In this document: piece by piece, positions 4,268 through 36,916 of the stretch
How positions within the stretch are numbered: position 1 is the stretch's first letter
Layout of the letters: each line of letters opens with the position of its first letter
NCBI GenBank assembly: GCA_038045405.1
Contig: JBBSYF010000001.1
Location: 1,832-65,831 of the forward strand
Length of the DNA: 64,000 nt
Reading direction: 5' to 3'
Source: Nanobdellota archaeon
GTDB lineage: Archaea > Nanobdellota > Nanobdellia > Pacearchaeales > GW2011-AR1
Notes under the pieces: generated by a model
The model's input: only the letters and a program-made list of their open reading frames with translations
Told to the model about the DNA's origin: nothing
The model's database searches: none
Program-made: the position numbers and the translations under genes

Positions 4268-4992
4268 TTTTCAGATAAGTCAATAAGGTTTTTTACTTCT
4301 TGTGGAAAAGTATCGTTAACCTCTTTTTCTTCTCTCTTTACTCTTATATAAGTGGCATAATTTTTTTCCCCACATATTTTAAAAAAATCTGACTTGAAAT
4401 AAGTTTTCTTCAAGGCTAAACATTTTATTAAGTATAGTTCTCTCAATCTTAAAACAAGAGAATAAACAACCCCATCAAGAACTTTTTCATCATAATCTGT
4501 ACAAAAATTTACAAAGTCTTTATTCATTTTAAGCACACCTCTTATCTCTCCTAATGTCTTTTTAGGGTTAAAGGACTTTTTATTCTGAATATATTTTTCA
4601 ATAAGTTCTTTGTTTACTATAACATCTATTTCATTTAACATGCTTGCATAATACAAATTAGTTAGAAAATTTTTTGAGAGGCTTTCTTCTGAACATAAAA
4701 ATATTTCATAGTTTTTGTAAGTGATAAATTTATTTATTTCACTTGTTATAACCAAGATATCAATATCACTCCCCCTGTCATAATCTCCTCTAGAATAGCT
4801 ACCAAAAATATATATACCTTTTACCTCTTCATTTAAATTTTTGGTAAATAAAAAATCTAAAACATCTTTGGCAATTTCTGCTTTATCTGGCAAAAAAAGA
4901 GTTACAACTACTTGCTTATTTAACCATTTTCTCGGCAATAAAACGCCTGCTGAAGTTCCTACTTCTCTAGCTTGTTTTACTATAGTTTCCAT
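4231..4992 (-). CDS. Nucleotidyltransferase-domain protein with an AbrB-like N-terminus
   Basis: The minimal NTase motif 'GSYSRGDYDRGSDIDILV' is present. The N-terminus 'GTSAGVLLPRKWLNKQVVV' is AbrB-like. The start was moved to the internal ATG (METIVK) instead of the track start at 5079. Confidence 0.55.
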   Translation of the reverse strand: METIVKQAREVGTSAGVLLPRKWLNKQVVVTLFLPDKAEIAKDVLDFLFTKNLNEEVKGIYIFGSYSRGDYDRGSDIDILVITSEINKFITYKNYEIFLCSEESLSKNFLTNLYYASMLNEIDVIVNKELIEKYIQNKKSFNPKKTLGEIRGVLKMNKDFVNFCTDYDEKVLDGVVYSLVLRLRELYLIKCLALKKTYFKSDFFKICGEKNYATYIRVKREEKEVNDTFPQEVKNLIDLSEKWLKELKEQKRV

Positions 4993-5214: not shown

Positions 5215-8200
5215 TTAAGCACATTCTGGGAATAATGCTTTTATTTCATCGTTAAAACCAAGAACATGTGATACATACTCGTTATTTCCTGTGCAACCCC
5301 ATCCATTATAGTTTCTTAATGCATACGTCCATCCAGAGTACTGTTTATTTGTACAGGTGAATGTTTTTGAATTGGAGTTGTATCCATTTATTAGAACATT
5401 GAGGCCGACGTTTATGTTAGTCTCAAAATCTGAAAGTTGTTTCTTACATTCTTCTAGGTTAGATGAAAGTCCATAAGTACCACAATGACCGATAAGTTGC
5501 CCAGCATTATTTTTGAACGCAATATTTATTTCCATGGTTCCTACACTCCCAAAGTTGTCACCATGAACGGTTTTGGTATAATCTCCTTCACAATACAAAG
5601 GATTTCCATTCTCTTGTGTCGGACTACATTGATGTATATCACTTTCCCTATATGCAACCTGTAAGGCCAAGCATTCAAAGTTTTTTGCTCCTGTTTGTTG
5701 TTTTACAACAGCATCGCTAAATTTAGCATCGCTTGTTTTCTTTGCTTCTGCTAGCTTAAGGATTTCTCTACCTAAAATTATTGAAGATAAATTCCTCTGA
5801 CAAGCAGGTAAATCTAAGCATTTCATTTTTCCATTTGTTTCTGTCGTTACTTCTTTTTGACAATCTTCAAATGTCGTGCATGTAAAGACAGTGGCGCCTG
5901 TCGTTGCAACTGCGGAGGTTGTAGCTGTTCCTGATGTTCCAGAGGTTCCTGAAGTCGATGATGTCCCGGATGCAGAATCAAGTCCAAAAAGTCTTTCGGC
6001 ACCCTGAATAGAATTTTTATCTCTCAAAATTGTTGCAATATTTTTGTTAAAAGAAGTTAAAGCAATCTGAGAATTTCCTATTGTGGTAATAGCATTTACA
6101 TCTGTCCACACATTTAGGTCACTTGAAATTTGCCAATTTTTTTTAGGAATGCTATACTTAAAGAATATTTTATCATCTTTTGTTAAAGTGAATATTTCTT
6201 CAGAGGAATATTCAACACTGTCTGTGACTAAAGACGGATTAGAAGAAAAATCCCCCCCGTCTCTTATATAAACTCTATTCATCAATTTAGAAAGACCTGC
6301 CGTGTAAGATTGACCATCTAGACTTTTAACGAATTCTTTATTTTTATCTGTTAATTGTGCAAACATCTGTTGATCAGTAAGCGTGCTTGAAGCAATAAAT
6401 GCACGTACTGTAGTTCTAAGACCGCCATCAGCATCTGAAGAAGAAACTGCTGTAGAAATCCATCTTTCTTTAGTCAATAGAGTGGATTTAGGATTTACAG
6501 ACCAATGCCAGTTACTTCCTGAAAAAGTGTAGTACAAATTAAATGCAATTGTGTCGTCTTTAAACTCAAAGATAGGATAGGTTATTTTTCCTATATTTTG
6601 CATTTCTTGTGCCTGAGGTGTTTGCGCTGGCACAACAAGAACGTCCCAATGATCCACTTCAAGGGCGTAAACCGCACCACTCACTTTGTTTCTGTATTGT
6701 TGCGCATTATCTCCACTTCTTTTTCCAACATCTTCAAAATTAGTTTTTATGTAAGCATCAAGTTGTGTGTTTAAACGTAAGTCAACTTTGTATCCGTTAG
6801 AATGACTGTACTGTCCTTCTGCATGATTCCCTTCCGTACCGCTTGTGATTGTTATTTCACAACCAGCGCATGATTGTTTAAGGTTCTCAATTTCTATTAA
6901 CGTTTGTTCTCGAACTCCTTGAAGGACAACTGTTCCATCTTTAACGCTGATTCCAGCACCAATCAAGGTTTTACGTGCAGTAGCTTCATTCACTGGAAGA
7001 TTGGATGGAGCTTCTGGAGTAGCAGGTTTTGCAGTTGTAGAAGTATCTGTATCTTTTGTTGGTCGTGTCGCTCGATATGCCTTCACGGCAATTGCTTTGT
7101 AAGCATTTGCCCTTAGAAGTGTTAGATAACCTTTTTTATCATTCTCTGAAACTCTGTTGTAAGCAGCAGCAATCAACCCTACTTTTTTAGAAAGATCTTT
7201 TTCTTTGTCGACAGAATCAACAAGATTAGTAAACTCGTCTGGAGTAAGTTCAGTACTTGAAAGAGCTTGATTAACATTCTTCACCGCATCATTTACTCCC
7301 TTCTCAGTTGAAACAGATCTTATCGTATCTTTAACGCTTTGTCCATCAAGCCAACATTTCATCTTTTCGTTTCCACAAATTCCAACTTCCGTCCATCTTT
7401 GATTTGCAGTTCCAACACCGGAGTCCGTTCCCGTTCCAGGATTAGTTGTTGCACAAACTCTCGTTATTCCTTGATTGTAAATTGCAGGATTAGCAAGTCC
7501 TTCTGCAGCAGATTGAATATTAGGAGTTAACAAATTCAATGCACTTGGAGTTCCTGAAATGCACGCTGCTTCAGTCTTTATGTTTGTTTGACTTGCTTGT
7601 GATGCAACTGCCTGTTCTGTAAGATAATTAATTCCAAACTCCGTTGTAACTTGTTTGAATCCACATTCTTCTTGATTGTTTACAACTATACAAAGTTCTT
7701 TGTATCCTGCAGGAGCGGGGAAGTCGGGAGTATCAGTTTTGAATTCTCCTCGTTTGATAAATCCATTTGCAACAATTCTTCTTTGGCCTGTATCTTCAAA
7801 GAAAGATCCTTCAGCTCCCTTAAGATAAACTTGATAGTAAGCTGGGAAATCTTTTCCTGCATATATGTGATAGAAAACTTTATACTGTGACATTGGGGGG
7901 TTCGTTGCAGTTGTTAATGGAATTTCATCAAATCTCCCATAGAATTGTGGAGGCACATCCGGAGTTGTTAAAGCATCTAATAAATTTCCTCCTTTTGGAG
8001 AAGCTATTGAAATCCAATTGTGACAAACTTCAGTCCCCACACCTTCCACTGTCCTTAACTTAAATGCATTGAATGAGTTTGATGCATAATACTGTGTGAA
8101 GAAATCAATAGAGTCTCCAGCTTTTTGCATTGCGTCCTGAACACCAAGATATTCTCCTCCTCCCCGAGTATTTTGTCCAAGAACAGAACCAATTATTTTA

Positions 8201-14700: not shown

Positions 14701-14807
14701 ACATTATATTTAAATATTTGGTGAAATTCCTAAAAGGACCAGGTCCCGTTGCCTATTGTTCAGAACAGAATAGAAAGATTAATAAATTAGTGGAAATTAA
14801 CTTAATA

Positions 14808-15857
14808 ATGAAATCAAGGGAAAGAAGAATAAAGCTAAAAAAGGGTGTTCAAAGAGAGATAATCCTTGAAGCTTCCAAAAGAGAAGGAAATATGAAGAAG
14901 ATGGCAGCAAAAGTAAAAGTCCCATACTCTACAATGAAGAATTACTCGGCAGAATACAGATTCTTACCGGAGAATTTATTTAATAATTTGTTAAAATTGT
15001 CCAACAAATCTACAGAAAATATTGATGCTTCTTACTTAGACTATAAATGGGGGCAACGCTTAGGAGGAAAATTGGGAATAAGAGCACTTGAAAAGAAATA
15101 TCCAGGTAAGATTAAGAAATGGAGAAGTTTAGCCATGAAAAAAGCACTAAGGACTAATCCACGTCTAAAAAAGATAAACTTACCCAAGATTAGTGAAGAG
15201 TTAGCAGAGTTTATAGGAATCTATTTAGGGGATGGTACAATGACAACAAATCAGATTAGAATAGTTGGCGATGCTAGGTACGATGTATTCTACTTCGAAT
15301 ACATATCTAAAATGGTTTATCATTTATTCGGGTTAAAAACTTCTTTAATAAAACATAAGGATACAAACACCTTTCTAGTTGTTGTTTATTCAAAGGCTTT
15401 ATGTGAGTTTATGAATCAAAATTTTAACTTGAAACCAGGAGATAAGATAAGAAATCAAAGCGGTATCCCTCAAAAGATTTTTCGGAATATAAATTTCGCA
15501 AAGGCTTGCTTAAGAGGGCTTATAGACACTGACGGATCGGTTTCAAGAAGGGGGAGAAACGGTAGTCAGTTTTGCATCCAATTCACTTCACACAATAAAA
15601 AACTTTTAGGTCAAGTGAAAAAAATAAACAAAAGACTTAAAATTTTTACATTTGGGGATGAAACAGGAACAGGTACGAATAAGTGGGAGAATATAGTCAA
15701 ATATTTTCAAATTGTTGGTAGCTCAAATCCAAAACACATAGTACGTTTTCTTTTAAGAAAAGAAGGTAGAGTTATTTATAGAGATGAATTGTCTTTTTAC
15801 TTCAAACAGGAAAGGTTTAAAGATTTAAATTTACCATTCAATTTAGGGGGCGTATAA
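14808..15857 (+). CDS. Free-standing double-motif LAGLIDADG homing endonuclease-like protein
   Basis: The two motifs are 'LAEFIGIYLGDGT' and 'CLRGLIDTDGS'. It is a paralog of the ORF at 32148-33059. The ATG at 14808 aligns with the paralog N-terminus, whereas the track start at 14718 is TTG. The last 10 nt overlap tRNA-Val. Confidence 0.8.
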   Translation: MKSRERRIKLKKGVQREIILEASKREGNMKKMAAKVKVPYSTMKNYSAEYRFLPENLFNNLLKLSNKSTENIDASYLDYKWGQRLGGKLGIRALEKKYPGKIKKWRSLAMKKALRTNPRLKKINLPKISEELAEFIGIYLGDGTMTTNQIRIVGDARYDVFYFEYISKMVYHLFGLKTSLIKHKDTNTFLVVVYSKALCEFMNQNFNLKPGDKIRNQSGIPQKIFRNINFAKACLRGLIDTDGSVSRRGRNGSQFCIQFTSHNKKLLGQVKKINKRLKIFTFGDETGTGTNKWENIVKYFQIVGSSNPKHIVRFLLRKEGRVIYRDELSFYFKQERFKDLNLPFNLGGV

Positions 15858-15918
15858 GCTAGCGGTAAACTGTGTCCTTGACGTGGACAATTCCCAAGTT
15901 CAACTCTTGGTACGCCCA
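15848..15918 (+). tRNA. tRNA-Val(GAC)
   Basis: The acceptor is GGGCGTA/TACGCCC and the anticodon arm is TGTCC-TTGACGT-GGACA. The T arm is CCAAG-TTCAACT-CTTGG. The D arm AGCT-AGCGGTA-AACT has one C-A mismatch. Confidence 0.75.
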
Positions 15919-15962
15919 TCCTTGACGTGGACAAAGCGCAGGTTCGATTCCTGTCAGGGCCA
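15919..15962 (+). pseudogene. 3' fragment of a second tRNA-Val(GAC) gene
   Basis: It begins with the 16-nt TCCTTGACGTGGACAA, identical to 15875-15890. It continues with a different T arm (GCAGG-TTCGATT-CCTGT) and acceptor strand (CAGGGCC-A). No matching 5' half (GGCCCTG) was seen nearby. Confidence 0.7.
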
Positions 15963-29982: not shown

Positions 29983-30597
29983 TTATTCCTTTCCGAGAGC
30001 ATATTTGTAACCTACAAGAAACTCGTTACCACTCATTTCAATTTCTCCAGAGAAAGATTTGTAATTTATCTCACCGAAAATTCTTGAGCTGTCGTCAAAA
30101 TTAAATTCAATTCCACCACCAAGAAGAAATCCTGTACCTTGTGCACTTGTTTGTTCAGAGTAACCTCCTCCTTGAGCACCAGATTTCATTTGTGTTAGAG
30201 AAAATCCTGCTCTCGAATAAAATGCGCCGCCGCCGCCGCTCCACCTGCTCACATAATGCATAGTACCTTCGAAGGAAAGGAAAGAAACATCTGAAGTAAT
30301 TTTAACACCGGAAACTTTGAGTTCAGATTTGGCTCCTGAACTTGAGACACCAATTTCGCCCCTAAAATTCTCGCTAAAATCCCTAGTTACGCTTCCCTTA
30401 AAACCATCTATTGATTTGTAGAATTTTTTTATTTCAGGATCATTATCAACATAACGAATAAAAGATGAAGAGATATTTGTTTGGGGAGAAAATCTTCCAG
30501 ATGTGGACAACGAATCCTGAGCAAGAGAATTTTTCGAAACAGAGAGTAAGGCCACAGCACCAATAGGCAATAGCAGTTTTCTTAAAAGAGCACTCAT
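29983..30597 (-). CDS. Secreted protein resembling a bacterial outer-membrane beta-barrel (OmpW/OMP_b-brl-like)
   Basis: The signal peptide is 'LLLPIGAVALLSVSKNSLAQ'. Amphipathic strands alternate, the turns are Gly-rich, and the sequence includes 'GGGIEFNFDDSSRIFGEINYK' and 'FLVGYKYA'. Confidence 0.45.
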   Translation of the reverse strand: MSALLRKLLLPIGAVALLSVSKNSLAQDSLSTSGRFSPQTNISSSFIRYVDNDPEIKKFYKSIDGFKGSVTRDFSENFRGEIGVSSSGAKSELKVSGVKITSDVSFLSFEGTMHYVSRWSGGGGAFYSRAGFSLTQMKSGAQGGGYSEQTSAQGTGFLLGGGIEFNFDDSSRIFGEINYKSFSGEIEMSGNEFLVGYKYALGKE

Positions 30598-30682
30598 AAG
30601 TAATCTTTGTTAGGAAGATATTTAAACATTATTGTAACGTGATATACATCAAATTTAAAAAATAAAAATACCTTAAGATTAT

Positions 30683-31075
30683 ATGAAATACAAAATATTC
30701 CTCTTCGTTTTCATAATAGGGCTCATTAGCTCAATAATTATCACTTCAAACTCTTCAACAGGGATATGCCGGCCTGGAAATGGATGTGATACTGTAACAG
30801 GTTCTTCCTACGGCTCAACTTTAGGAATAAAGAACGCAACATATGGAGTTGTAATCTTTCCTCTGCTTATACTCCTCACCATTTTTCATATGAAAAAACC
30901 AAACAATCACACAAGAAGAATTCTACATCTTGCCGTGGGTTTTGGTGCACTTGTATCAATTTATTTCCTATATCTTCAAGTATTTGTAATAAAAGCTTTT
31001 TGTGAATTTTGTATTGTAATTGACATTGCGCTTCTCATAGGACTTGGTTTTATGTTCTATCTTTGGGAACATTAA
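30683..31075 (+). CDS. Vitamin K epoxide reductase (VKOR) family protein
   Basis: It has four TM segments, a loop Cys pair 'GICRPGNGC', the segment 'SSYGSTLGIKNATYG', and a CxxC motif 'CEFC' in the last helix. Confidence 0.65.
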   Translation: MKYKIFLFVFIIGLISSIIITSNSSTGICRPGNGCDTVTGSSYGSTLGIKNATYGVVIFPLLILLTIFHMKKPNNHTRRILHLAVGFGALVSIYFLYLQVFVIKAFCEFCIVIDIALLIGLGFMFYLWEH

Positions 31076-31088
31076 TTAAATAATTCAA

Positions 31089-31703
31089 ATGGTAGAAAAA
31101 ATAATTCAACAGGGAGCTGAAGCATCTATTATTCTTGATGAAAATAGAATAATCAAAAGAAGAATAAAAAAATCTTACAGGCTTGATATTCTCGATGAAA
31201 GAGTCAGGAAACAAAGAACTCGCTCTGAAGCAAAGCTAATTGAAAAGGCATCAAAAGTTATTCCTGTTCCAAAATTAGAAGAAGTTGACGAAAAAACCAA
31301 AGAGATAAAGATGCAATTCTTAGACGGTCAAAGACTTTCCGTTCATCTTGATTCTCTGCCTTTAACTAAACAAGAGAAGATATGCAAACAAATTGGAGAA
31401 AACATCGCGAAGCTTCATGATGTAGAAATAATTCACGGAGATTTAACAACGAGCAATATGATTTTACAGGGCTCAAAAGTTTATTTTATAGACTTCGGAC
31501 TGGGTTTCATAAGCCCAAAGGTTGAAGACAAAGCAGTTGATTTACACGTTCTACGACAAGCCCTAGAAGCAAAACATTTCAAACACTGGCAAGACTTGTT
31601 TGCACAAGTTCTTGCAGGTTACGCTATATCAAAAAACCATAAAAAAGTCCTCGAACAATTCAAGAAAGTTGAAACTCGTGGAAGGTATAAAGAACAGTAT
31701 TAA
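31089..31703 (+). CDS. bud32: Bud32/PRPK kinase (KEOPS subunit)
   Basis: 'IIQQGAEASI', 'IIHGDLTTSNMIL' and 'FIDFGL' are present. The ORF is about 200 aa. Confidence 0.8.
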   Translation: MVEKIIQQGAEASIILDENRIIKRRIKKSYRLDILDERVRKQRTRSEAKLIEKASKVIPVPKLEEVDEKTKEIKMQFLDGQRLSVHLDSLPLTKQEKICKQIGENIAKLHDVEIIHGDLTTSNMILQGSKVYFIDFGLGFISPKVEDKAVDLHVLRQALEAKHFKHWQDLFAQVLAGYAISKNHKKVLEQFKKVETRGRYKEQY

Positions 31704-32036
31704 TCATTTAGCATTCTTTAGACAATACTTTAACAAGCCGTATTGAGAGGTCCCGAAAAAACTCAAATTATTATTTTTTCTCCATTTCTTAAGAGAAAGA
31801 TCACTTACACTCTTCAAGTCTCTATTTATTGCTCGATACATCATTAAAGCGTCATCAAAAGTTATTTCTTCAATAGGCTTTCTTTCAAACTGAGAGATAC
31901 TCCTGATTAACATGCTCGGCACCCCTAATTGACAAGAAATTTCTCTCTTATCACCCCTATTCACTAAAATATATCCATTCATAACCTCTTCTTTTTGGCA
32001 ATATTTGAGCAAGTCATCTTTAGTTAGAAGTTCCAT
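31704..32036 (-). CDS. Hypothetical protein
   Basis: The ORF is 110 aa. No motif was recognised. Confidence 0.3.
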   Translation of the reverse strand: MELLTKDDLLKYCQKEEVMNGYILVNRGDKREISCQLGVPSMLIRSISQFERKPIEEITFDDALMMYRAINRDLKSVSDLSLKKWRKNNNLSFFGTSQYGLLKYCLKNAK

Positions 32037-32089
32037 CTGTTTCTCAGAAAAATAGCATTTATTAAAATTATTGTGGCTATTTGAAAGAA

Positions 32090-32162
32090 TAGCCCCACTC
32101 GGATTCGAACCGAGGTTTCAGCCTTCAAAGGGCCGCGAACTTGACCACTATTCTATGGGGCT
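32090..32162 (-). tRNA. tRNA-Gln(UUG)
   Basis: Read on the minus strand, the acceptor is AGCCCCA/TGGGGCT and the D arm is GAAT-AGTGGTCAA-GTTC. The anticodon arm is CGGCC-CTTTGAA-GGCTG. The T arm is CTCGG-TTCGAAT-CCGAG. Confidence 0.88.
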
Positions 32163-33059
32163 TTGGAGATTCCAAATCTTAACTTTGTTCAGATGCCTCG
32201 AATTTTTGAAACCAACTTCATTTAAAAATTTTCTCAATTCCGATTTTTTAGTGATTACTATGTCTTTTCCTTTAGTTATCTCTGAAACACCTATTCCTAG
32301 AGATAACAACCCTTTCCTTACATCTTTTAGTAAGGTATTGTTATAATTAGTAAAACAAATTTGATGAGAATTTTGATTTGTTAATTTGTAAACTGAACCG
32401 TCCGTATCAAATAGTCCTCTAAGACATGCCTTGAGATAAGAGTCTTTTTCTTTAATCCAAGAGGGAATTGTAACCTGATTTTTTATTTTGTTACCATGAT
32501 TTAGCCCATTAGAAATAAAAAAGTTTACCAATTGCTTGCTAGAAACCACTATATGCCTTCCATTGCTATCTTTAGGTAATTTTTCTTTGGGTTTTACGCC
32601 GAATAATTCTTCAAATAAAATTGAAATATAATTTAGGTGATATTCCTTGTCTAAATTCTTGTCACCTGCGATGTTAACTTGATAAACACCAATCTTCTTT
32701 CCTTTTTTGTAATAATTTATATTTCCATCTCCCAAGATAATGCCTATTAATTCAGCAAGCTTCTCGCTTCGTTCAGGTGTTCTTATTTTTATGGTAGACC
32801 CTAGAGAGTTAAGCCCTCCTTTAGATTGTCCCCAGAAAGTGTCTAGCTTATTTATAATGAATCTGTCAAAATTTCTATTGGTGATGGTGCTTAATTTAGA
32901 GTATAATTCTTCAGAAATTAATCTTCTCTCATTCTTCAAATCTCGATTTAAATAATCAGCCCCCATCCCAATTTTTTTAGCTAACTCTTTCCATGTTGAA
33001 TCACCTTTCGCTAATAAGATTAATTCTTTTTGCTTTCCTTTCTGCAGCTTTATTTTCAC
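32148..33059 (-). CDS. Free-standing double-motif LAGLIDADG homing endonuclease-like protein
   Basis: The motifs are 'LAELIGIILGDGN' and 'CLRGLFDTDGS'. It is a paralog of the gene at 14808-15857 and uses a GTG start. Its last 15 nt overlap the 5' end of tRNA-Gln. Confidence 0.8.
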   Translation of the reverse strand: MKIKLQKGKQKELILLAKGDSTWKELAKKIGMGADYLNRDLKNERRLISEELYSKLSTITNRNFDRFIINKLDTFWGQSKGGLNSLGSTIKIRTPERSEKLAELIGIILGDGNINYYKKGKKIGVYQVNIAGDKNLDKEYHLNYISILFEELFGVKPKEKLPKDSNGRHIVVSSKQLVNFFISNGLNHGNKIKNQVTIPSWIKEKDSYLKACLRGLFDTDGSVYKLTNQNSHQICFTNYNNTLLKDVRKGLLSLGIGVSEITKGKDIVITKKSELRKFLNEVGFKNSRHLNKVKIWNLQSPIE

Positions 33060-33109
33060 AGATTAAGTAAGAATCAGATATTTATATACTTTTTGACCGC
33101 TACACCACA

Positions 33110-33129
33110 TTCGAATCCTGGCGGGGCTA
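33110..33129 (+). pseudogene. tRNA 3'-end fragment (T loop, T stem and acceptor), inverted relative to tRNA-Gln
   Basis: TTCGAATCCTGGCGGGGCTA compares with the tRNA-Gln 3' end TTCGAATCCGAGTGGGGCTA. There is no 5' partner, and the 5' strand of the T stem is missing. Confidence 0.55.
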
Positions 33130-33181
33130 GGTGTATATTCTTCTAGATATAAACTTAAAAACTCAATTCATAAGTTATTTT

Positions 33182-33451
33182 ATGACAAAAGACTTAGAGC
33201 TGACTGTTGGTGGTTTGCCTGTTGTTTCAGAAGAAACTTTTTTGGAGGTTGTAACCACATATCCTTTAGTTTCAGGAACTAACAATCCTGAAACAAGAAT
33301 GAGGATAGAAAAAGAAAATCCTCAGATAGCAGAGGTAGTCAGAATAGGTATATCTGCTGCACCAAACCTTGCAGCTGGAGTATACTTCGAAATGGGATGT
33401 CAAATCACTTATGAACTTTTAAGAGCTCAGGGTATTTTTAATAAAGAATAG
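33182..33451 (+). CDS. Hypothetical protein
   Basis: The ORF is 89 aa from the first ATG. The track start at 33131 is GTG and overlaps the tRNA fragment. Confidence 0.3.
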   Translation: MTKDLELTVGGLPVVSEETFLEVVTTYPLVSGTNNPETRMRIEKENPQIAEVVRIGISAAPNLAAGVYFEMGCQITYELLRAQGIFNKE

Positions 33452-33468
33452 TCTCAAAAGTCCTAATT

Positions 33469-34269
33469 TTATTCCTTAAAAATTCTGTTATAAAAAATCT
33501 CTCTGTTAACTTCTTCTTGTTTTGGATCAAGACCGAAGAAGTTCCTGAAGTTGAAAGCACCTTCTTCATATTTTTCTCCAACAAGAACAGAAGCTAGTTT
33601 TTTGTATTCAATGCTTCCCTTAGACTTTGGACTGAATGTTGTCGATGGCTCCATCCTTGAAAGGGCCTTGAGAGCATTAAGATCGTAAGGGATAACTGCA
33701 AGAACAGGGACATCTAAAGTTTCTTCAATACTTGAGATGGAAATTTCAAAATCTTTTCCATGAACTTTGTTTAAAACAATTCCAGAGATAGGAACGCCTC
33801 TCTGTTTTGCCAATTTCACAGCTTTCATAGTAGCGGTTAATGTTGGATGATCCGGCGTTGTTATAGCAATAACTTGATCAGAAGCAAGAATGACCGATAG
33901 CGATTCTTCAGCTATAGATGGCCCGGAGTCTATAAGAATAATGTCATAATTTCTTTTTAATCCGTTAATTTTGTCCTTTAATCCAAGAGGGCTGGTTTCT
34001 GCTCTTTCAAAGATGGAAGCAGGCATCACATCAAAGTTTCCATGTTGATATATGGCATCTTTTGGTCTAGCCATTCTGTTCAAAACGTGATGTAGTGTTC
34101 TCTTTGGATCAACAATACCAAGATGAAGTCCAAGGCTTGGAGAGGACAAGTTTCCGTCGACTAAAAGAACTTTTTTTCCAATTTCTGCAAATGCAGCTCC
34201 GAGGGCCGCAACAACACTAGTTTTTCCAACACCGCCCTTCAAACTTATCACCCCTATTACTTTCCCCAT
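33469..34269 (-). CDS. MinD/ParA-family P-loop ATPase
   Basis: The deviant Walker A 'SLKGGVGKTS' and the Walker B 'IILIDSGP' are present. Confidence 0.8.
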   Translation of the reverse strand: MGKVIGVISLKGGVGKTSVVAALGAAFAEIGKKVLLVDGNLSSPSLGLHLGIVDPKRTLHHVLNRMARPKDAIYQHGNFDVMPASIFERAETSPLGLKDKINGLKRNYDIILIDSGPSIAEESLSVILASDQVIAITTPDHPTLTATMKAVKLAKQRGVPISGIVLNKVHGKDFEISISSIEETLDVPVLAVIPYDLNALKALSRMEPSTTFSPKSKGSIEYKKLASVLVGEKYEEGAFNFRNFFGLDPKQEEVNREIFYNRIFKE

Positions 34270-34353
34270 CCCATTAATAAAATTTTAATGTTTAAATTCT
34301 TTTACTTTTGAAGCACACATAAGATTTAAAAACAAACTCCTTTATCTAATAAA

Positions 34354-34725
34354 ATGCAGAAAAAAGCGAAAGCGAAAAAACGAGAAAAAGTGCCTTCAAA
34401 GAAGGTTTCTCAAGAAGAATTTGAGAAAAAAGTCTTAGAATTAGCTTCTACAGGACTAACAAGCGAAAAGATTGGAGAAGCCCTAAGAAGAGAAGGAATT
34501 CACCCTAAAGAACACGGAAAGAATATATCTTTAATTCTAAAAGAAAAGGGAAAATATGTATCTCCAGACCTGAAAAACGTGGAAGCTCAACTTGAAAAGA
34601 TAAAGAAACACTTTGAAAAGAACAAACAAGATAAAAGAGCTTTGAGAGACAGAGAAAGAACATTCTCAAAATTAAGAAAGCTTAAGAGATACCATAAAGT
34701 ACCTGATGTTAAAGTGAAAAAGTAG
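34354..34725 (+). CDS. rps15: 30S ribosomal protein S15 (S13e)
   Basis: 'GLTSEKIGEALRREGI', 'SPDLKNVEAQLEKIKKHFEKNKQDKRA' and 'KLRKLKRYH' match the family pattern. Confidence 0.75.
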   Translation: MQKKAKAKKREKVPSKKVSQEEFEKKVLELASTGLTSEKIGEALRREGIHPKEHGKNISLILKEKGKYVSPDLKNVEAQLEKIKKHFEKNKQDKRALRDRERTFSKLRKLKRYHKVPDVKVKK

Positions 34726-34768
34726 ACGGAATTATTCAAAGTAATTTTTAAGAAGAGGATTATACAAT

Positions 34769-36175
34769 ATGATAAAAGAGGGTGAGCTAATTTCTGAAAG
34801 TCTCGAAGAGAGCACTCCACTTTTAGAAGGATATAAAGAGAATATTTCTTTGGAAGAAAAAATAAAAAGAGTTTCAAAAATATTTCTTCAAAAATCAGAA
34901 AGCAGTGAGGTTGTAGTTGTTAGCCACTTTGATACTGATGGAATAACTTCTGCAGCTATTATGACTAAATGCCTAAGAAGATTAGACAGAAAGTTTTCAG
35001 TAAAAATTGTGAAGTCTTTGGAAAGTCCGTTTATTCATTCTCTTCCAAAAAATAAAATAATTCTTTTCCTCGACCTCTCTTCAGGGAGTTTAGGCCACAT
35101 ACAAGAAGCTGGATTGAGCAACGTTTTCATAATAGACCACCACGAACTTGATCGTGAAATTCCAAGAGAGGTTGAGATAGTCAACCCCCAGCTTCATCGC
35201 AAAGAAAAAATAAGTTCATCGGGGCTCACTTATCTTTTTTGCAAAGAGATAGATCCTGAAAGTAAAAAGTCTGCAAAACTTGCAGTCCTTGGAATGATTG
35301 GAGACTTGTTAGAAAAAGAAATAGATAAACTCAACAACGGAATATTAGAAGACGGAGAGATAAAGAAAAAACGTGGGCTTCTAATTTATCCGTCAACAAG
35401 ACCAATAAACCGTGCTTTGGAGTATTCTTCAAATCCGTATATCCCCGGAGTCACTGGAAATTCCCTTGGAGTTCTTGAACTTTTAAGAGAAGCCGGTTTA
35501 GAAGCCACAAGGGGACAATACAGAAGTTTAATGGAAATAACAGAAGATGAAATGAAAAGACTTGTAACAGCAATTGCGATTAGAAACCCTAAAGCTGCTG
35601 GAGAAATTGTTGGAGATATATTCTTAATCAAATTTTTTAACAAATTAGAAGATGCAAGAGAACTAAGTGCAATGGTTAATGCCTGTTCAAGACTTGGACA
35701 AAGCGGTGTTGCTTTGCGATTCTGTATGGAAGTTCCAGGTTCGAGAAAAGAGGCGGAAGAAATTCATATAAAATACAAACAGCACATAATTTCTGGACTT
35801 GATTTTGTTTCAAAAGCTGACAAGGTTGTTGGAAAAAGTTTTGTGATAATCAATGCTAAAGATCAGATAAAAGATACTATTGTTGGAACCATAGCAAGCA
35901 TTCTTTCAAACTCTTCTGTTTACGAAAAGGGAACAGTTATAACAACAATGGCATACTACGACGACAAAATAAAAGTTTCAGCGAGAGTTTGTGGCAGAAA
36001 CGCAAGTGGAAGTCAAAGAAACATTAGAGAAATCCTCAGCGGAGTTATGAATGAGGTAGGGGGAGAGGTGGGTGGACACGAATTCGCCGCAGGATGTATT
36101 CTAACAAGAGATAAAGAAAAGCAGTTTATTGAAGTTCTTAGTAAGGCTCTTGAAATAGAATTTGTAAAGATTTAA
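34769..36175 (+). CDS. DHH-family phosphoesterase, RecJ/GAN (Cdc45)-like
   Basis: 'VVSHFDTDGITSAAI' and 'IIDHH' give the DHH motifs. A DHHA1-like 'GGHEFAAG' lies near the C-terminus. Confidence 0.65.
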   Translation: MIKEGELISESLEESTPLLEGYKENISLEEKIKRVSKIFLQKSESSEVVVVSHFDTDGITSAAIMTKCLRRLDRKFSVKIVKSLESPFIHSLPKNKIILFLDLSSGSLGHIQEAGLSNVFIIDHHELDREIPREVEIVNPQLHRKEKISSSGLTYLFCKEIDPESKKSAKLAVLGMIGDLLEKEIDKLNNGILEDGEIKKKRGLLIYPSTRPINRALEYSSNPYIPGVTGNSLGVLELLREAGLEATRGQYRSLMEITEDEMKRLVTAIAIRNPKAAGEIVGDIFLIKFFNKLEDARELSAMVNACSRLGQSGVALRFCMEVPGSRKEAEEIHIKYKQHIISGLDFVSKADKVVGKSFVIINAKDQIKDTIVGTIASILSNSSVYEKGTVITTMAYYDDKIKVSARVCGRNASGSQRNIREILSGVMNEVGGEVGGHEFAAGCILTRDKEKQFIEVLSKALEIEFVKI

Positions 36176-36199
36176 AACCTCTTTTTCTCTTCCTAAAAT

Positions 36200-36916
36200 A
36201 TGACACTAGAAGAAGGAGAAATTGTTTTTTGCACTGTTGACAGAATAATAGGAACAAATGTATTTGTAAAACTCCTAGAAAACAATAGAGAAGTAGAAGG
36301 CTGTATTGTTATGAGTGAAATTGCACCAGGAAGAATAAGGAACATAAGAGATTATGTTGTTCCAAAGAAACAAATCGTTTGTAAAATCTTACGAATTTCT
36401 GGAGACAGAATAGACCTTTCCTTAAGGCGTGTAACACTTAAGGAACAAAAAGAGGTAAAAGAAAGATACAATCAAGAGAAGAGTTATGAAAGCATACTAA
36501 AAAGCGTTCTTGGTGAAAATGCTGAAAAAATAAAAGGAATAATTTCTAAAAACGGAAAAGTCTACGACTTCTTAAACGAAGCAAAAGAGAATCCTAAAGA
36601 ACTTGAAGAATTAACAAGTAAGGATGATGCAAAAAAAATACTTGACATTATAAATGCTCAGCAAAAAAAGAAGAAAATTGTGTTAAAAAGAGAAATATCC
36701 TTAACAGCGACGGACACTCTTGGAATTGAAACAATAAAAAAACTCTTAACAAACATAAAAGAGGCAAAAATAAGTTACATCTCTGCTGGAAATTACGTTC
36801 TAAAAATAGAATCCGACGACTTAAAGAAAGCAGACAATGAACTTCGAGATATTCTTGTAGAACTTGAAAAAGATGCAAAAAAAGTAGGGGCAGAGTTTAG
36901 CATTATCAAGAAGTAA
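36200..36916 (+). CDS. eif2a: Translation initiation factor 2 alpha subunit (aIF2-alpha)
   Basis: The N-terminal S1 domain reads 'EGEIVFCTVDRIIGTNVFVKLLE...MSEIAPGRIRNIRDYV...RIDLSLRRV'. Confidence 0.8.
   Translation: MTLEEGEIVFCTVDRIIGTNVFVKLLENNREVEGCIVMSEIAPGRIRNIRDYVVPKKQIVCKILRISGDRIDLSLRRVTLKEQKEVKERYNQEKSYESILKSVLGENAEKIKGIISKNGKVYDFLNEAKENPKELEELTSKDDAKKILDIINAQQKKKKIVLKREISLTATDTLGIETIKKLLTNIKEAKISYISAGNYVLKIESDDLKKADNELRDILVELEKDAKKVGAEFSIIKK

What the first reader, a model, noticed from the sequence alone, without database searches (positions are those of the whole stretch)
32090..33129. Second, paralogous LAGLIDADG gene with the same architecture: it reads into tRNA-Gln(UUG) and has an inverted tRNA 3'-end fragment on its other side
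The minus-strand ORF at 32148-33059 ends 15 nt inside tRNA-Gln(UUG) at 32090-32162. Just upstream of its GTG start, on the opposite strand, lies TTCGAATCCTGGCGGGGCTA (33110-33129). This is a T-loop, T-stem and acceptor 3' end nearly identical to that of tRNA-Gln (TTCGAATCCGAGTGGGGCTA), with no 5' half. Two paralogous endonuclease genes each fused to the 5' edge of a different tRNA and each flanked by a partial tRNA copy argues for a recurring mechanism rather than chance adjacency.
Basis: partly seen in the sequence, partly recalled or inferred. Interest (0 to 1): 0.72.

Follow-up and report, generated by a model that had tools for sequence, protein, structure and literature searches.

The report
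Homing endonuclease gene nested in tRNA genes
A family of DNA-cutting "selfish" genes in tiny DPANN archaea sits inside tRNA genes, carries a spare copy of the part of the tRNA it displaces, and leaves tRNA fragments behind, which may help explain why tRNA genes in these organisms are so often broken up.

Summary
tRNA-Gln(UUG) lies at 32090-32162(-). A 303-aa LAGLIDADG ORF (32148-33059, -) stops 15 nt inside it. A 20-nt inverted tRNA-Gln 3' end lies at 33110-33129.

The link to tRNA genes is family-wide:
- In 75 of 85 related loci the ORF ends inside a same-strand tRNA, mostly Gln but also Glu, Val and others. Among distant viral LAGLIDADG genes the count was 0 of 65.
- The stop codon is the tRNA's own UAG, at positions 13-15 or 8-10.

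It is a same-strand relic of the tRNA 5' part, the D arm ending in GGTCAA (33093-33108). A TATA-like box follows it, about 25 nt before the start codon.

The inverted 3' piece is specific to this lineage. It is the remnant of another tRNA-Gln that normally precedes the small ORF at 33182-33451. It lies in a recombination tract that an otherwise ~100%-identical strain lacks.

Best reading: a free-standing homing endonuclease element inserted in the tRNA D loop, carrying a replacement tRNA 5' part (a whole tRNA at the Val locus). Cleavage and mobility are inferred, not shown. I found no published description.

The parts
32090..32162 (-). Intact tRNA-Gln(UUG). Its first 15 nt also encode the last four codons and the stop codon of the endonuclease ORF.
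   Evidence: ARAGORN; Rfam tRNA model 63.7 bits; sequence.
32148..33059 (-). LAGLIDADG homing-endonuclease-like gene, 303 aa. It has an N-terminal HTH-like domain (residues ~1-75) and a two-motif I-DmoI-like core (residues ~99-300). Its stop codon is the UAG at tRNA positions 13-15.
   Evidence: ORF list. Pfam PF14528 E=2e-15. Both catalytic Asp residues (LGDG, DTDG) are invariant in 29 sequences. AF2 model pLDDT 89. Foldseek matches I-Tsp061I and I-DmoI at TMt 0.70-0.72. dN/dS is 0.05-0.16 between syntenic orthologs, 0.26 against the near-identical strain.
33080..33089 (-). TATA-like box (GTATATAAAT on the minus strand), about 26 nt upstream of the GTG start. Inferred promoter of a leaderless endonuclease mRNA.
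   Evidence: Sequence. The box is conserved at the same distance in 38 aligned loci, consensus TTTATAAA about 22 nt before the ATG. Promoter function is inferred, not tested.
33093..33108 (-). 5' relic of a tRNA-Gln gene: the D arm, GTGGTGTAGCGGTCAA, ending at D-loop position ~21, on the same strand as the endonuclease gene. This is the family-wide partner of the element.
   Evidence: Direct repeat with the D loop of the intact tRNA (D12). Present at 34-40 nt from the start codon in relatives. Significant against within-locus nulls in 36 of 74 loci. Alignment columns 80-99% conserved.
33110..33129 (+). Inverted 3' relic (T loop, T stem 3' strand, acceptor 3' strand, discriminator; positions 54-73) of another tRNA-Gln gene. 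It is joined to the 5' relic without homology.
   Evidence: 17/20 to the local tRNA-Gln, 0 expected by chance. It is 20/20 identical to the tRNA-Gln 3' end of L010. It is absent from syntenic relatives L081-L085. In L087/L088 an intact tRNA-Gln sits at the same 52-53 nt distance before the homologous small ORF.
33182..33451 (+). Small ORF (89 aa, no known family). Its native neighbour is a tRNA-Gln gene. Together with the 3' relic it forms the 364 nt (33109-33472) that the near-identical strain lacks.
   Evidence: Only 5 homologs found. Contexts. blastn of L082/L083 against the window.
32755..33472 (.). Recombination tract. Against a strain that is ~100% identical on both sides, this stretch is either missing (33109-33472) or only 60-77% identical (32755-33108). 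The diverged part covers the relic, the promoter and the first ~100 codons of the endonuclease.
   Evidence: ParA dS is 0.011 while HEG dS is 0.30 for the same pair of strains.
14742..14768 (+). Paralogous Val locus: a decayed 5' relic (GGTCCCGTTGCCTATTGTTCAGAACAG), followed by a TATA-like box at about 14777-14790.
   Evidence: It aligns with the family's upstream consensus and is conserved in L090. Weak on its own.
14808..15857 (+). Paralogous LAGLIDADG gene (35% identical). It reads 10 nt into tRNA-Val(GAC); the stop is TAA at tRNA positions 8-10.
15848..15918 (+). Intact tRNA-Val(GAC) linked to the paralog. It is identical (71/71, by eye) in L091, although the endonucleases there are only 67% identical.
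   Evidence: ARAGORN; Rfam 53.8 bits.
15919..15962 (+). 3' relic (positions ~29-73) of an older, canonical tRNA-Val(GAC), directly abutting the intact tRNA-Val.
   Evidence: Sequence. Relatives carry lineage-specific relics at the same place with different start points and T stems. L092's relic still has an intron at the canonical position.

Best explanation
This is a free-standing LAGLIDADG homing-endonuclease element that lives inside tRNA genes of DPANN archaea.

Anatomy (shown). On one strand, in order:
1. A relic of the tRNA's 5' part, ending at the D-loop sequence GGTCAA.
2. A TATA-like box.
3. The endonuclease gene.
4. A complete tRNA. Its first 10-15 nt supply the last codons of the ORF and a built-in UAG stop (tRNA positions 13-15 or 8-10).

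So the element sits in the D loop of a resident tRNA gene and brings a new copy of the displaced 5' part. At the Val locus it brings a whole tRNA, leaving relics of the old gene on both sides. The tRNA stays functional.

Mechanism (inferred).
- The enzyme cuts element-free tRNA genes of the same kind near position 21/22.
- The break is repaired from an element-bearing copy.
- Homologous repair leaves only the 5' relic. Illegitimate joining also leaves a 3' relic.
- The conserved D-arm relic next to the TATA box may serve as an operator or as a homology arm.

This window. The inverted 3' piece at 33110-33129 is the remnant of a second tRNA-Gln that used to precede the small ORF. It was joined head-to-head to the element's 5' relic. 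The whole block reached this strain by recombination, with one endpoint inside the endonuclease gene.
For: tRNA run-in.
- 75 of 85 loci have a tRNA (7/7 acceptor pairing plus T loop) starting at the ORF end. The overlap is 15 nt in 40 loci and 10 nt in 21.
- ARAGORN identifies Gln, Glu, Tyr, Pro, Ser and Val.
- 0 of 65 distant viral LAGLIDADG ORFs end in a tRNA.
- 93 of the 120 best database homologs end in a tRNA-encoded peptide.

5' relic.
- Seen by eye in most loci.
- Significant in 36 of 74 loci, always 34-40 nt before the ATG in the full-length subfamily. Consensus.
- A short-ORF subfamily (L044, L048) has a relic of positions 1-13/14 only. This points to insertion inside the tRNA rather than in front of it.

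Replacement.
- Val loci carry the same linked tRNA but lineage-specific 3' relics.
- 7 of 73 Gln/Glu loci have a second copy of the tRNA 3' end downstream.

Enzyme.
- Both catalytic Asp residues are invariant.
- The predicted fold is I-DmoI/I-Tsp061I-like.
- dN/dS is 0.05-0.16 between syntenic orthologs and 0.26 against the near-identical strain.

Presence/absence and exchange.
- L089 is an element-free allele of the same Bud32-tRNA-Gln...small ORF-ParA locus.
- A near-identical strain differs only in the tract 32755-33472.

No intron ribozyme. Rfam finds no group I or II intron in the window at E up to 1.
Against: - Cleavage and homing were not and could not be tested here.
- The gene has stayed at one syntenic locus across species whose ParA is only 64-65% identical. 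It is more conserved than its neighbours: HEG 79% against ParA 64% and Bud32 69%. That is unusual for a purely selfish endonuclease, which should decay after fixation.
- I found no consistent base differences that would make the linked tRNA immune to its own enzyme.
- Only one element-free syntenic allele was found, and it is not a close relative.
- The D-arm relic is conserved although synonymous sites are saturated. It therefore probably has a function that the simple relic model does not predict.
- CPR bacterial homologs show the run-in but no 5' relic.
Confidence: 0.6

Rival explanations
1. Domesticated protein. The element is no longer mobile. The HTH-LAGLIDADG protein is kept by the host for a function tied to its tRNA, for example regulating transcription of the tRNA by binding the D-arm relic, or helping to process intron-rich tRNA-Gln/Glu precursors. 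LAGLIDADG maturases and WhiA show that such changes of function occur.
For: - Strong purifying selection, with higher conservation than the flanking housekeeping genes at a syntenic locus.
- The D-arm relic is conserved next to the TATA box despite saturated synonymous divergence.
- 40 of 75 linked tRNAs carry introns.
- Foldseek also lists the bI3 maturase, I-AniI and WhiA among the matches.
Against: - Both catalytic Asp residues are invariant, whereas WhiA has lost them (established knowledge).
- The family has moved between tRNA identities: Gln, Glu, Val, Pro, Tyr, Ser.
- tRNA relics on both sides of the Val unit are the footprint of insertion.
- An element-free syntenic allele exists.
- The element is a recombination hot spot between near-identical strains.
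Confidence: 0.22
2. Intron-encoded endonuclease. The ~1.1-kb stretch is an archaeal bulge-helix-bulge intron in the D loop. The upstream relic is the real 5' exon and is spliced to the tRNA body, as in rRNA introns that encode I-DmoI.
For: - The closest solved structures are archaeal intron-encoded I-DmoI and I-Tsp061I.
- Short introns sit at the same D-loop position in many linked tRNAs.
- In some loci the relic is a perfect 22-24-nt copy that includes the acceptor strand (L032, L034, L043, L071).
Against: - In the window and its syntenic relatives the relic lacks the acceptor strand. In the relatives (L081-L085) the ParA stop codon abuts the D-arm piece. The relic therefore cannot be exon 1.
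- In some loci (e.g. L001, L006) the relic's acceptor strand would mispair with the tRNA's 3' strand.
- The downstream tRNA is complete on its own in every locus.
- Bacterial (CPR) homologs show the same run-in although bacteria lack this splicing system.
Confidence: 0.05
3. Integrase-type integrative element or chance. The partial tRNA copies are att-site duplications left by a tyrosine-recombinase element, or the adjacency and fragments are coincidental.
For: tRNA genes are classic integration targets, and integration leaves partial tRNA repeats (established knowledge).
Against: - The ~1.1-kb unit holds no integrase gene; it holds only the LAGLIDADG ORF.
- The duplicated part is the 5' portion, not the 3' att core.
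- The statistics exclude chance.
Confidence: 0.02

Closest known systems
I-DmoI / I-Tsp061I (archaeal LAGLIDADG endonucleases encoded in rRNA bulge-helix-bulge introns)
   Same: Monomeric two-motif LAGLIDADG fold (Foldseek TMt 0.70-0.72; phmmer E=0.002). Archaeal host. The target is a stable-RNA gene.
   Different: - Here there is no intron; the gene is free-standing.
- It has an extra N-terminal HTH-like domain.
- It sits in a tRNA gene, not an rRNA gene.
- The host gene is kept intact by duplicating its 5' part instead of by RNA splicing.
Phage T4 SegB and other free-standing phage homing endonucleases ('intronless homing'; from my own knowledge, and SegB is mentioned in PMC13096335)
   Same: A free-standing endonuclease gene lodged among tRNA genes. 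It promotes inheritance of its own tRNA region by cutting the rival allele.
   Different: - SegB is a GIY-YIG enzyme in a phage genome.
- It lies between genes.
- It does not overlap a tRNA and does not duplicate part of one.
Mitochondrial free-standing HEGs that insert at gene ends and bring a replacement end (e.g. the Allomyces atp6 case; from memory, not checked here)
   Same: The mobile ORF brings a substitute copy of the segment it displaces. The old segment stays behind as a pseudogene fragment.
   Different: - Those cases involve protein-coding genes in organelles, with 3' ends replaced in frame.
- Here the host gene is an archaeal tRNA gene, the 5' part is replaced, and the stop codon comes from conserved tRNA nucleotides.
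tRNA-targeting integrative elements (tyrosine integrases)
   Same: tRNA genes are the landing site, and partial tRNA repeats mark the borders.
   Different: No integrase is present. The 5' rather than the 3' part is duplicated. The unit is only ~1.1 kb.
Split and intron-disrupted tRNA genes of Nanoarchaeum and other DPANN (PMC5829648; PMC10714607)
   Same: Same superphylum. tRNA 5' and 3' parts are physically separated. There are many non-canonical introns, and Gln and Glu tRNAs are involved.
   Different: An intact tRNA is always present here. The separated pieces are relics rather than expressed halves. No complementary leader sequences were found.
Synthetic 'cleave and rescue' gene-drive elements (from my own knowledge)
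   Same: A nuclease is paired with a copy of the essential gene it targets.
   Different: That system is engineered and uses Cas9. Here, resistance of the linked tRNA to the enzyme is only a conjecture.

Membership tests
LAGLIDADG homing endonucleases (two-motif, monomeric) | Two LAGLIDADG motifs, each ending in a catalytic acidic residue | tested here: met
   LGDG (D111) and DTDG (D220) are invariant in 29 aligned sequences. Pfam PF14528 scores 57 bits against a cutoff of 22.5.
LAGLIDADG homing endonucleases (two-motif, monomeric) | Tandem alpha-beta-beta-alpha-beta-beta-alpha fold | tested here: met
   AF2 model with pLDDT 89. Foldseek probability 1.00 to I-Tsp061I, I-DmoI and intein endonucleases.
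LAGLIDADG homing endonucleases (two-motif, monomeric) | Site-specific cleavage of a long DNA target | not testable with these tools
   Needs purified protein and tRNA-gene substrates.
LAGLIDADG homing endonucleases (two-motif, monomeric) | Mobility: presence/absence at a homologous site, or transfer between sites | tested here: inconclusive
   There is one element-free syntenic allele (L089). The family is found at several tRNA identities. There is a recombination tract between near-identical strains. No recent, clean plus/minus pair was found.
Archaeal BHB-intron-encoded endonucleases | The gene lies in an intron whose flanking exons together make the RNA gene | tested here: not met
   The upstream relic lacks the acceptor strand in the window and in L081-L085. 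The downstream tRNA is complete.
Group I / group II intron-encoded endonucleases | Surrounding ribozyme structure | tested here: not met
   No intron family was found in the window at E up to 1.
Integrase-type tRNA-targeting integrative elements | A recombinase gene, with direct repeats of the tRNA 3' part at both ends | tested here: not met
   The unit contains only the LAGLIDADG ORF. The repeated part is the tRNA 5' portion.
Split tRNA genes (Nanoarchaeum type) | Separate 5' and 3' half genes, both required, with no intact copy | tested here: not met
   An intact tRNA lies at every locus. The relics are truncated or decayed.
WhiA-like LAGLIDADG transcription factors | Catalytic residues lost; HTH domain C-terminal | tested here: not met
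   The catalytic Asp residues are retained. The HTH-like domain is N-terminal. PF14527 scores 18.4 bits, below its cutoff of 23.2.

The most novel reading that the evidence does not exclude
These elements are a natural 'cleave and rescue' system and a direct source of disrupted tRNA genes.
- The enzyme destroys resident tRNA genes, while the element supplies a replacement tRNA that it cannot cut.
- In many loci the protection would come from an intron at exactly the D-loop position where the element inserts.
- Each insertion physically separates tRNA 5' and 3' pieces.

This would give a concrete route to the non-canonical introns and split tRNA genes of DPANN archaea, whose origin is described as unclear (PMC5829648).
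Probability: 0.25. Interest if true: 0.85.

Novelty: new variant of a known kind. Interest (0 to 1): 0.64.

Why it matters
Homing endonucleases are known from introns, inteins and phage intergenic regions. An archaeal family that nests in tRNA genes and keeps them working by carrying a spare 5' part appears to be undescribed; eight literature searches found nothing. The family is not rare. It has 87 clusters (at 50% identity) at E<=1e-30 and about 490 confirmed loci in species-level genomes.

Three consequences follow.
1. A mobile element that cuts tRNA genes at the D loop would be a specific, testable agent for the heavy disruption of tRNA genes in DPANN archaea (introns at odd positions, split genes).
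2. Such an element would supply the selective pressure that has long been proposed for intron 'immunity'.
3. There is a practical issue for annotation. Gene callers extend these ORFs into or through tRNAs, and tRNA finders miss many of the linked, intron-bearing tRNAs.

The enzymes would also be new long-target nucleases with tRNA-gene specificity.

Tried and rejected
- **Split or permuted tRNA half.** I looked for a matching 5' half of the 33110-33129 piece (AGCCCCG...) and of the old tRNA-Val (GGCCCTG) anywhere in the window and found none. Rejected.
- **Intron ribozyme around the ORF.** There are no Rfam hits. Rejected.
- **Hairpin or structured junction at 33085-33145.** The fold is no better than shuffles (z = 0.38). 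Rejected.
- **Rfam as a detector of tRNA fragments.** It is too insensitive; it missed both known relics at E up to 1. I used pattern and alignment tests instead.
- **T-loop motif scan of all loci.** It is noisy in AT-rich DNA, but it revealed tRNAs that ARAGORN had missed.
- **Immunity by base changes.** I compared relics, linked tRNAs and element-free tRNAs by eye and saw no consistent difference. Left open.
- **Short D-loop introns as collapsed copies of the element.** Their ends do not resemble the element's ends. Not supported, not excluded.
- **Virus-borne copies.** Viral contigs hold only distant LAGLIDADG genes (up to 35% identity) with no tRNA link.
- **Literature.** Eight searches and three papers read gave no description of tRNA-linked LAGLIDADG genes in archaea.
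- **Exact history of the head-to-head relic junction.** It could not be reconstructed from the available alleles.
Full report
**1. Observation**

The window holds five tRNA genes. One is tRNA-Gln(UUG) at 32090-32162 on the minus strand (ARAGORN; Rfam 63.7 bits).

The minus-strand ORF 32148-33059 (GTG start, 303 aa) ends with ...CAA AGC CCC ATA GAA TAG. Its last 15 nt are the first 15 nt of the tRNA.

The protein has a LAGLIDADG_3 domain (E=2e-15) and an N-terminal HTH-like region. It is 35% identical to the ORF that reads into tRNA-Val(GAC) at 15848.

The 20-mer at 33110-33129(+) matches the tRNA-Gln 3' end at 17/20. No other site in the window matches, and none is expected by chance.

**2. 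The link to tRNA genes holds across the family**

A database search gave 699 homologs. They come from Pacearchaeota, Woesearchaeota and Nanoarchaeota, are about 300 aa long, and are about 50% identical. In the alignment most of them end in S-P-[IVM]-V. That peptide is the translation of AGC CCC RTR GTN, the 5' end of archaeal tRNA-Gln. Three of them read through the whole tRNA.

I fetched 80 loci from species-level genomes and five from the closest relatives. I then looked for a tRNA at the ORF end, requiring 7/7 acceptor pairing and a T loop.
- 75 of 85 loci have one.
- The overlap is 15 nt in 40 loci, 10 nt in 21 and 2 nt in 3.
- These overlaps are explained by conserved tRNA nucleotides that spell UAG: U13-A14-G15, U8-A9-G10, and N(-1)-A1-G2. 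An ORF entering in any frame is therefore stopped at once.
- ARAGORN alone found fewer tRNAs, because 40 of the 75 linked tRNAs carry introns.
- Identities are mostly Gln (50 start with AGCC). Glu, Pro, Tyr and Ser also occur, the last two in CPR bacteria, and Val in the paralogous clade.
- As a control, none of 65 distant LAGLIDADG ORFs in viral contigs ends at a tRNA.

**3. The recurrent partial copy is a 5' relic, not the inverted 3' end**

Upstream of nearly every full-length member lies a same-strand copy of the tRNA 5' part that ends at the D-loop sequence GGTCAA. An example is L001: AGCCCCATAGTTCAGTGGTCAA. The copy ends 34-40 nt before the start codon. About 10 nt after it comes a TATA-like box.
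- A local-alignment test against random windows of the same locus is significant in 36 of 74 loci (29 at the resolution limit).
- The aligned consensus is GTAGTnTAG-TGGTCAA-aAGT-(A)n-TTTATAAA, then about 22 nt, then ATG.
- In a short-ORF subfamily the relic is only positions 1-13/14 (L044, L048).

In the window this relic is GTGGTGTAGCGGTCAA at 33093-33108(-), with GTATATAAAT at 33080-33089(-). The repeat finder reports it as a direct repeat of the D loop of the intact tRNA (D12).

The unit is therefore: 5' relic, promoter, endonuclease gene, then a new 5' part fused to the tRNA body. That is an insertion in the D loop with duplication of the displaced 5' part.

**4. What the inverted 3' piece is**

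Five syntenic relatives have endonucleases 69-88% identical to the window's. They show this order: ParA stop codon, D-arm relic, TATA, endonuclease, tRNA-Gln, then (with up to three other genes between) a Bud32/RIO-type kinase. None of them has an inverted piece.

The strain behind L082/L083 is 99.5-100% identical to the window on both sides. It lacks 33109-33472 and is only 60-77% identical over 32755-33108. Identity returns to 100% at 32754, inside the endonuclease gene. For the same pair, ParA dS is 0.011 and endonuclease dS is 0.30. A block holding the small ORF, the 3' piece, the relic, the promoter and the first third of the gene was therefore exchanged by recombination.

The small ORF (33182-33451) belongs to a rare family. 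In L087/L088 its homolog lies 53 nt downstream of an intact, element-free tRNA-Gln on the same strand. In the window the 3' piece lies 52 nt upstream of it. The piece is 20/20 identical to the tRNA-Gln 3' end of L010.

It is therefore the last 20 nt of a resident tRNA-Gln whose remainder was lost. It was joined head-to-head, without homology, to the element's 5' relic. The junction has no notable structure.

L089 is an element-free version of the same neighbourhood: Bud32, tRNA-Gln, a 200-aa ORF, the small ORF, ParA. It is about as distant from the window as the element-bearing L081.

**5. The Val paralog**

Relatives (52-70% identical) also read into tRNA-Val(GAC). The window and L091 share an identical linked tRNA-Val, and L090 matches over the 45 nt that its contig retains. 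It has unusual D and T arms.

Behind it each lineage keeps a different 3' relic of a canonical tRNA-Val:
- from position ~29 in the window (15919-15962);
- from position ~39 in L091;
- from position ~27 in L092, which still has an intron at the canonical site.

The T stems of these relics differ. A decayed 5' relic lies upstream (14742-14768). Here the unit carries a whole replacement tRNA and interrupts the old gene. Seven of 73 Gln/Glu loci likewise have a second copy of the tRNA 3' end 70-180 nt downstream.

**6. The protein**

Both catalytic aspartates are invariant. The AF2 model is confident (pLDDT 89). Its core matches intein endonucleases, I-Tsp061I and I-DmoI (TMt 0.70-0.72). By sequence, I-DmoI is the closest solved protein (E=0.002). 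NCBIfam has no model for the family.

dN/dS between syntenic orthologs is 0.05-0.16 (0.26 against the near-identical strain L082). The protein is more conserved than ParA or Bud32 across the same species pairs. The family has 87 clusters at 50% identity with E<=1e-30.

**7. Mechanism**

Shown: the anatomy, its recurrence, the relics, an intact catalytic core, an element-free allele, and a recombination tract.

Inferred:
- The enzyme cuts element-free tRNA genes near the D loop.
- Repair from an element-bearing copy inserts the unit.
- Homologous repair on the 3' side leaves no 3' relic. In L081 the tRNA 3' end still abuts Bud32, as it does in the element-free L089.
- Illegitimate repair leaves a 3' relic (the Val locus, and this window's head-to-head junction).
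- The TATA box about 26 nt before the start codon suggests a leaderless mRNA.
- If the ORF and the tRNA share a transcript, RNase P cleavage would remove the stop codon, so tRNA maturation and endonuclease translation would exclude each other. This is speculation.

Two things remain unexplained.
- The D-arm relic stays conserved where synonymous sites are saturated. That suggests a cis function, such as an operator, as is known for I-TevI (from my own knowledge).
- Most introns of the linked tRNAs sit at the same D-loop position where the relic ends. That fits the idea of introns as protection against the enzyme, but I had no control set of unlinked tRNAs.

**8. Rivals**

Domestication is the serious rival, because of the long syntenic retention and the tight constraint. 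The retained catalytic residues, the spread over several tRNA identities, the insertion footprints and the element-free allele speak against it as the sole explanation.

The archaeal-intron reading fails for three reasons. The relic often lacks or mismatches the acceptor strand. The downstream tRNA is always complete. Bacterial homologs show the same run-in.

Integrase elements and chance are excluded.

**9. Novelty**

Eight full-text searches and three papers read gave no description of tRNA-nested LAGLIDADG genes. The literature notes LAGLIDADG genes in rRNA introns of DPANN and CPR (PMC6125680, PMC7143001, PMC10714607). It states that the mechanism of tRNA gene disruption is unclear (PMC5829648).

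I rate this a new variant of a known kind: a homing endonuclease element with a new host site and a new way of preserving the host gene.

Noticed in passing
L010, L016, L025, L032, L034, L036, L040, L042, L046 and others (tRNA directly after the endonuclease ORF): 40 of 75 endonuclease-linked tRNAs carry introns. Most of these sit in the D loop right after GGTCAA (about position 20-22), the same point where the upstream 5' relic ends. Only a few sit at the canonical 37/38 site. I had no control set of unlinked tRNAs.
   Followed up: partly
L003 3295-3308, L005 ~1539-1552, L010 ~2682-2695, L012 ~4963-4976, L029 ~6071-6084, L075 ~675-688; also after the unlinked tRNA-Gln of L038 (4736-4810): A second, near-identical copy of the last 12-14 nt of the tRNA lies 70-130 nt downstream of the tRNA. 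The spacer is homologous between L010 and L012 and contains an inverted T-loop-like GGATTCGAAC. It could be a 3' relic, a T-loop intron or a small insertion.
   Followed up: partly
L059 ~5690-5760, L067 ~1895-1950, L068 ~5640-5666: The linked tRNA-Gln genes appear to have an intron inside the T loop (GGTTCGAA|...|AATCC...GGGGCTA).
   Followed up: no
window 33182-33451 (+); L087 1539-1799; L089 1064-1333: An 86-89-aa ORF family with no known domain and very few members (5 database hits). It repeatedly lies next to a tRNA-Gln gene and, in two lineages, converges on ParA.
   Followed up: partly
window 31915-32034 and 31555-31674: Two further short patches are only 75-87% identical to the otherwise identical strain L083. 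They lie in the 110-aa ORF and at the end of the Bud32-like kinase gene. This suggests frequent small recombination imports in this region.
   Followed up: no
L073 5001-5808, L077 5001-5710, L079 3559-4424: Homologs in CPR/Patescibacteria and an Omnitrophota bin end within or directly before bacterial tRNA-Tyr or tRNA-Ser genes (3 nt before the tRNA in L077). No 5' relic was detected. The association therefore crosses the domain boundary.
   Followed up: partly
P0018, P0086, P0101 (database proteins): Public gene calls extend these endonuclease ORFs through the whole tRNA, giving spurious C-terminal tails such as ...GSNPGGA (translated T arm and acceptor). This is an annotation artefact worth flagging.
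   Followed up: yes
L086 (760-kb contig, 99.6% identical to window 30182-36452): This looks like a near-complete genome of the same organism, but with frameshifts. The endonuclease is called as 194 aa and the DHH/RecJ-like gene is split in two, probably from long-read assembly errors.
   Followed up: no
L089 250-256; L081 3975-3978: The stop codon of the Bud32/RIO-type kinase gene overlaps or abuts the 3' end of the convergent tRNA-Gln gene, both with and without the element. The tRNA body has therefore kept its place.
   Followed up: partly
window 15848-15918; L091 913-983: The linked tRNA-Val(GAC) is 71/71 identical between loci whose endonucleases are only 67% identical. Its D arm is unusual compared with the canonical tRNA-Val relic next to it, and its T loop reads TTCAACT.
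   Followed up: partly
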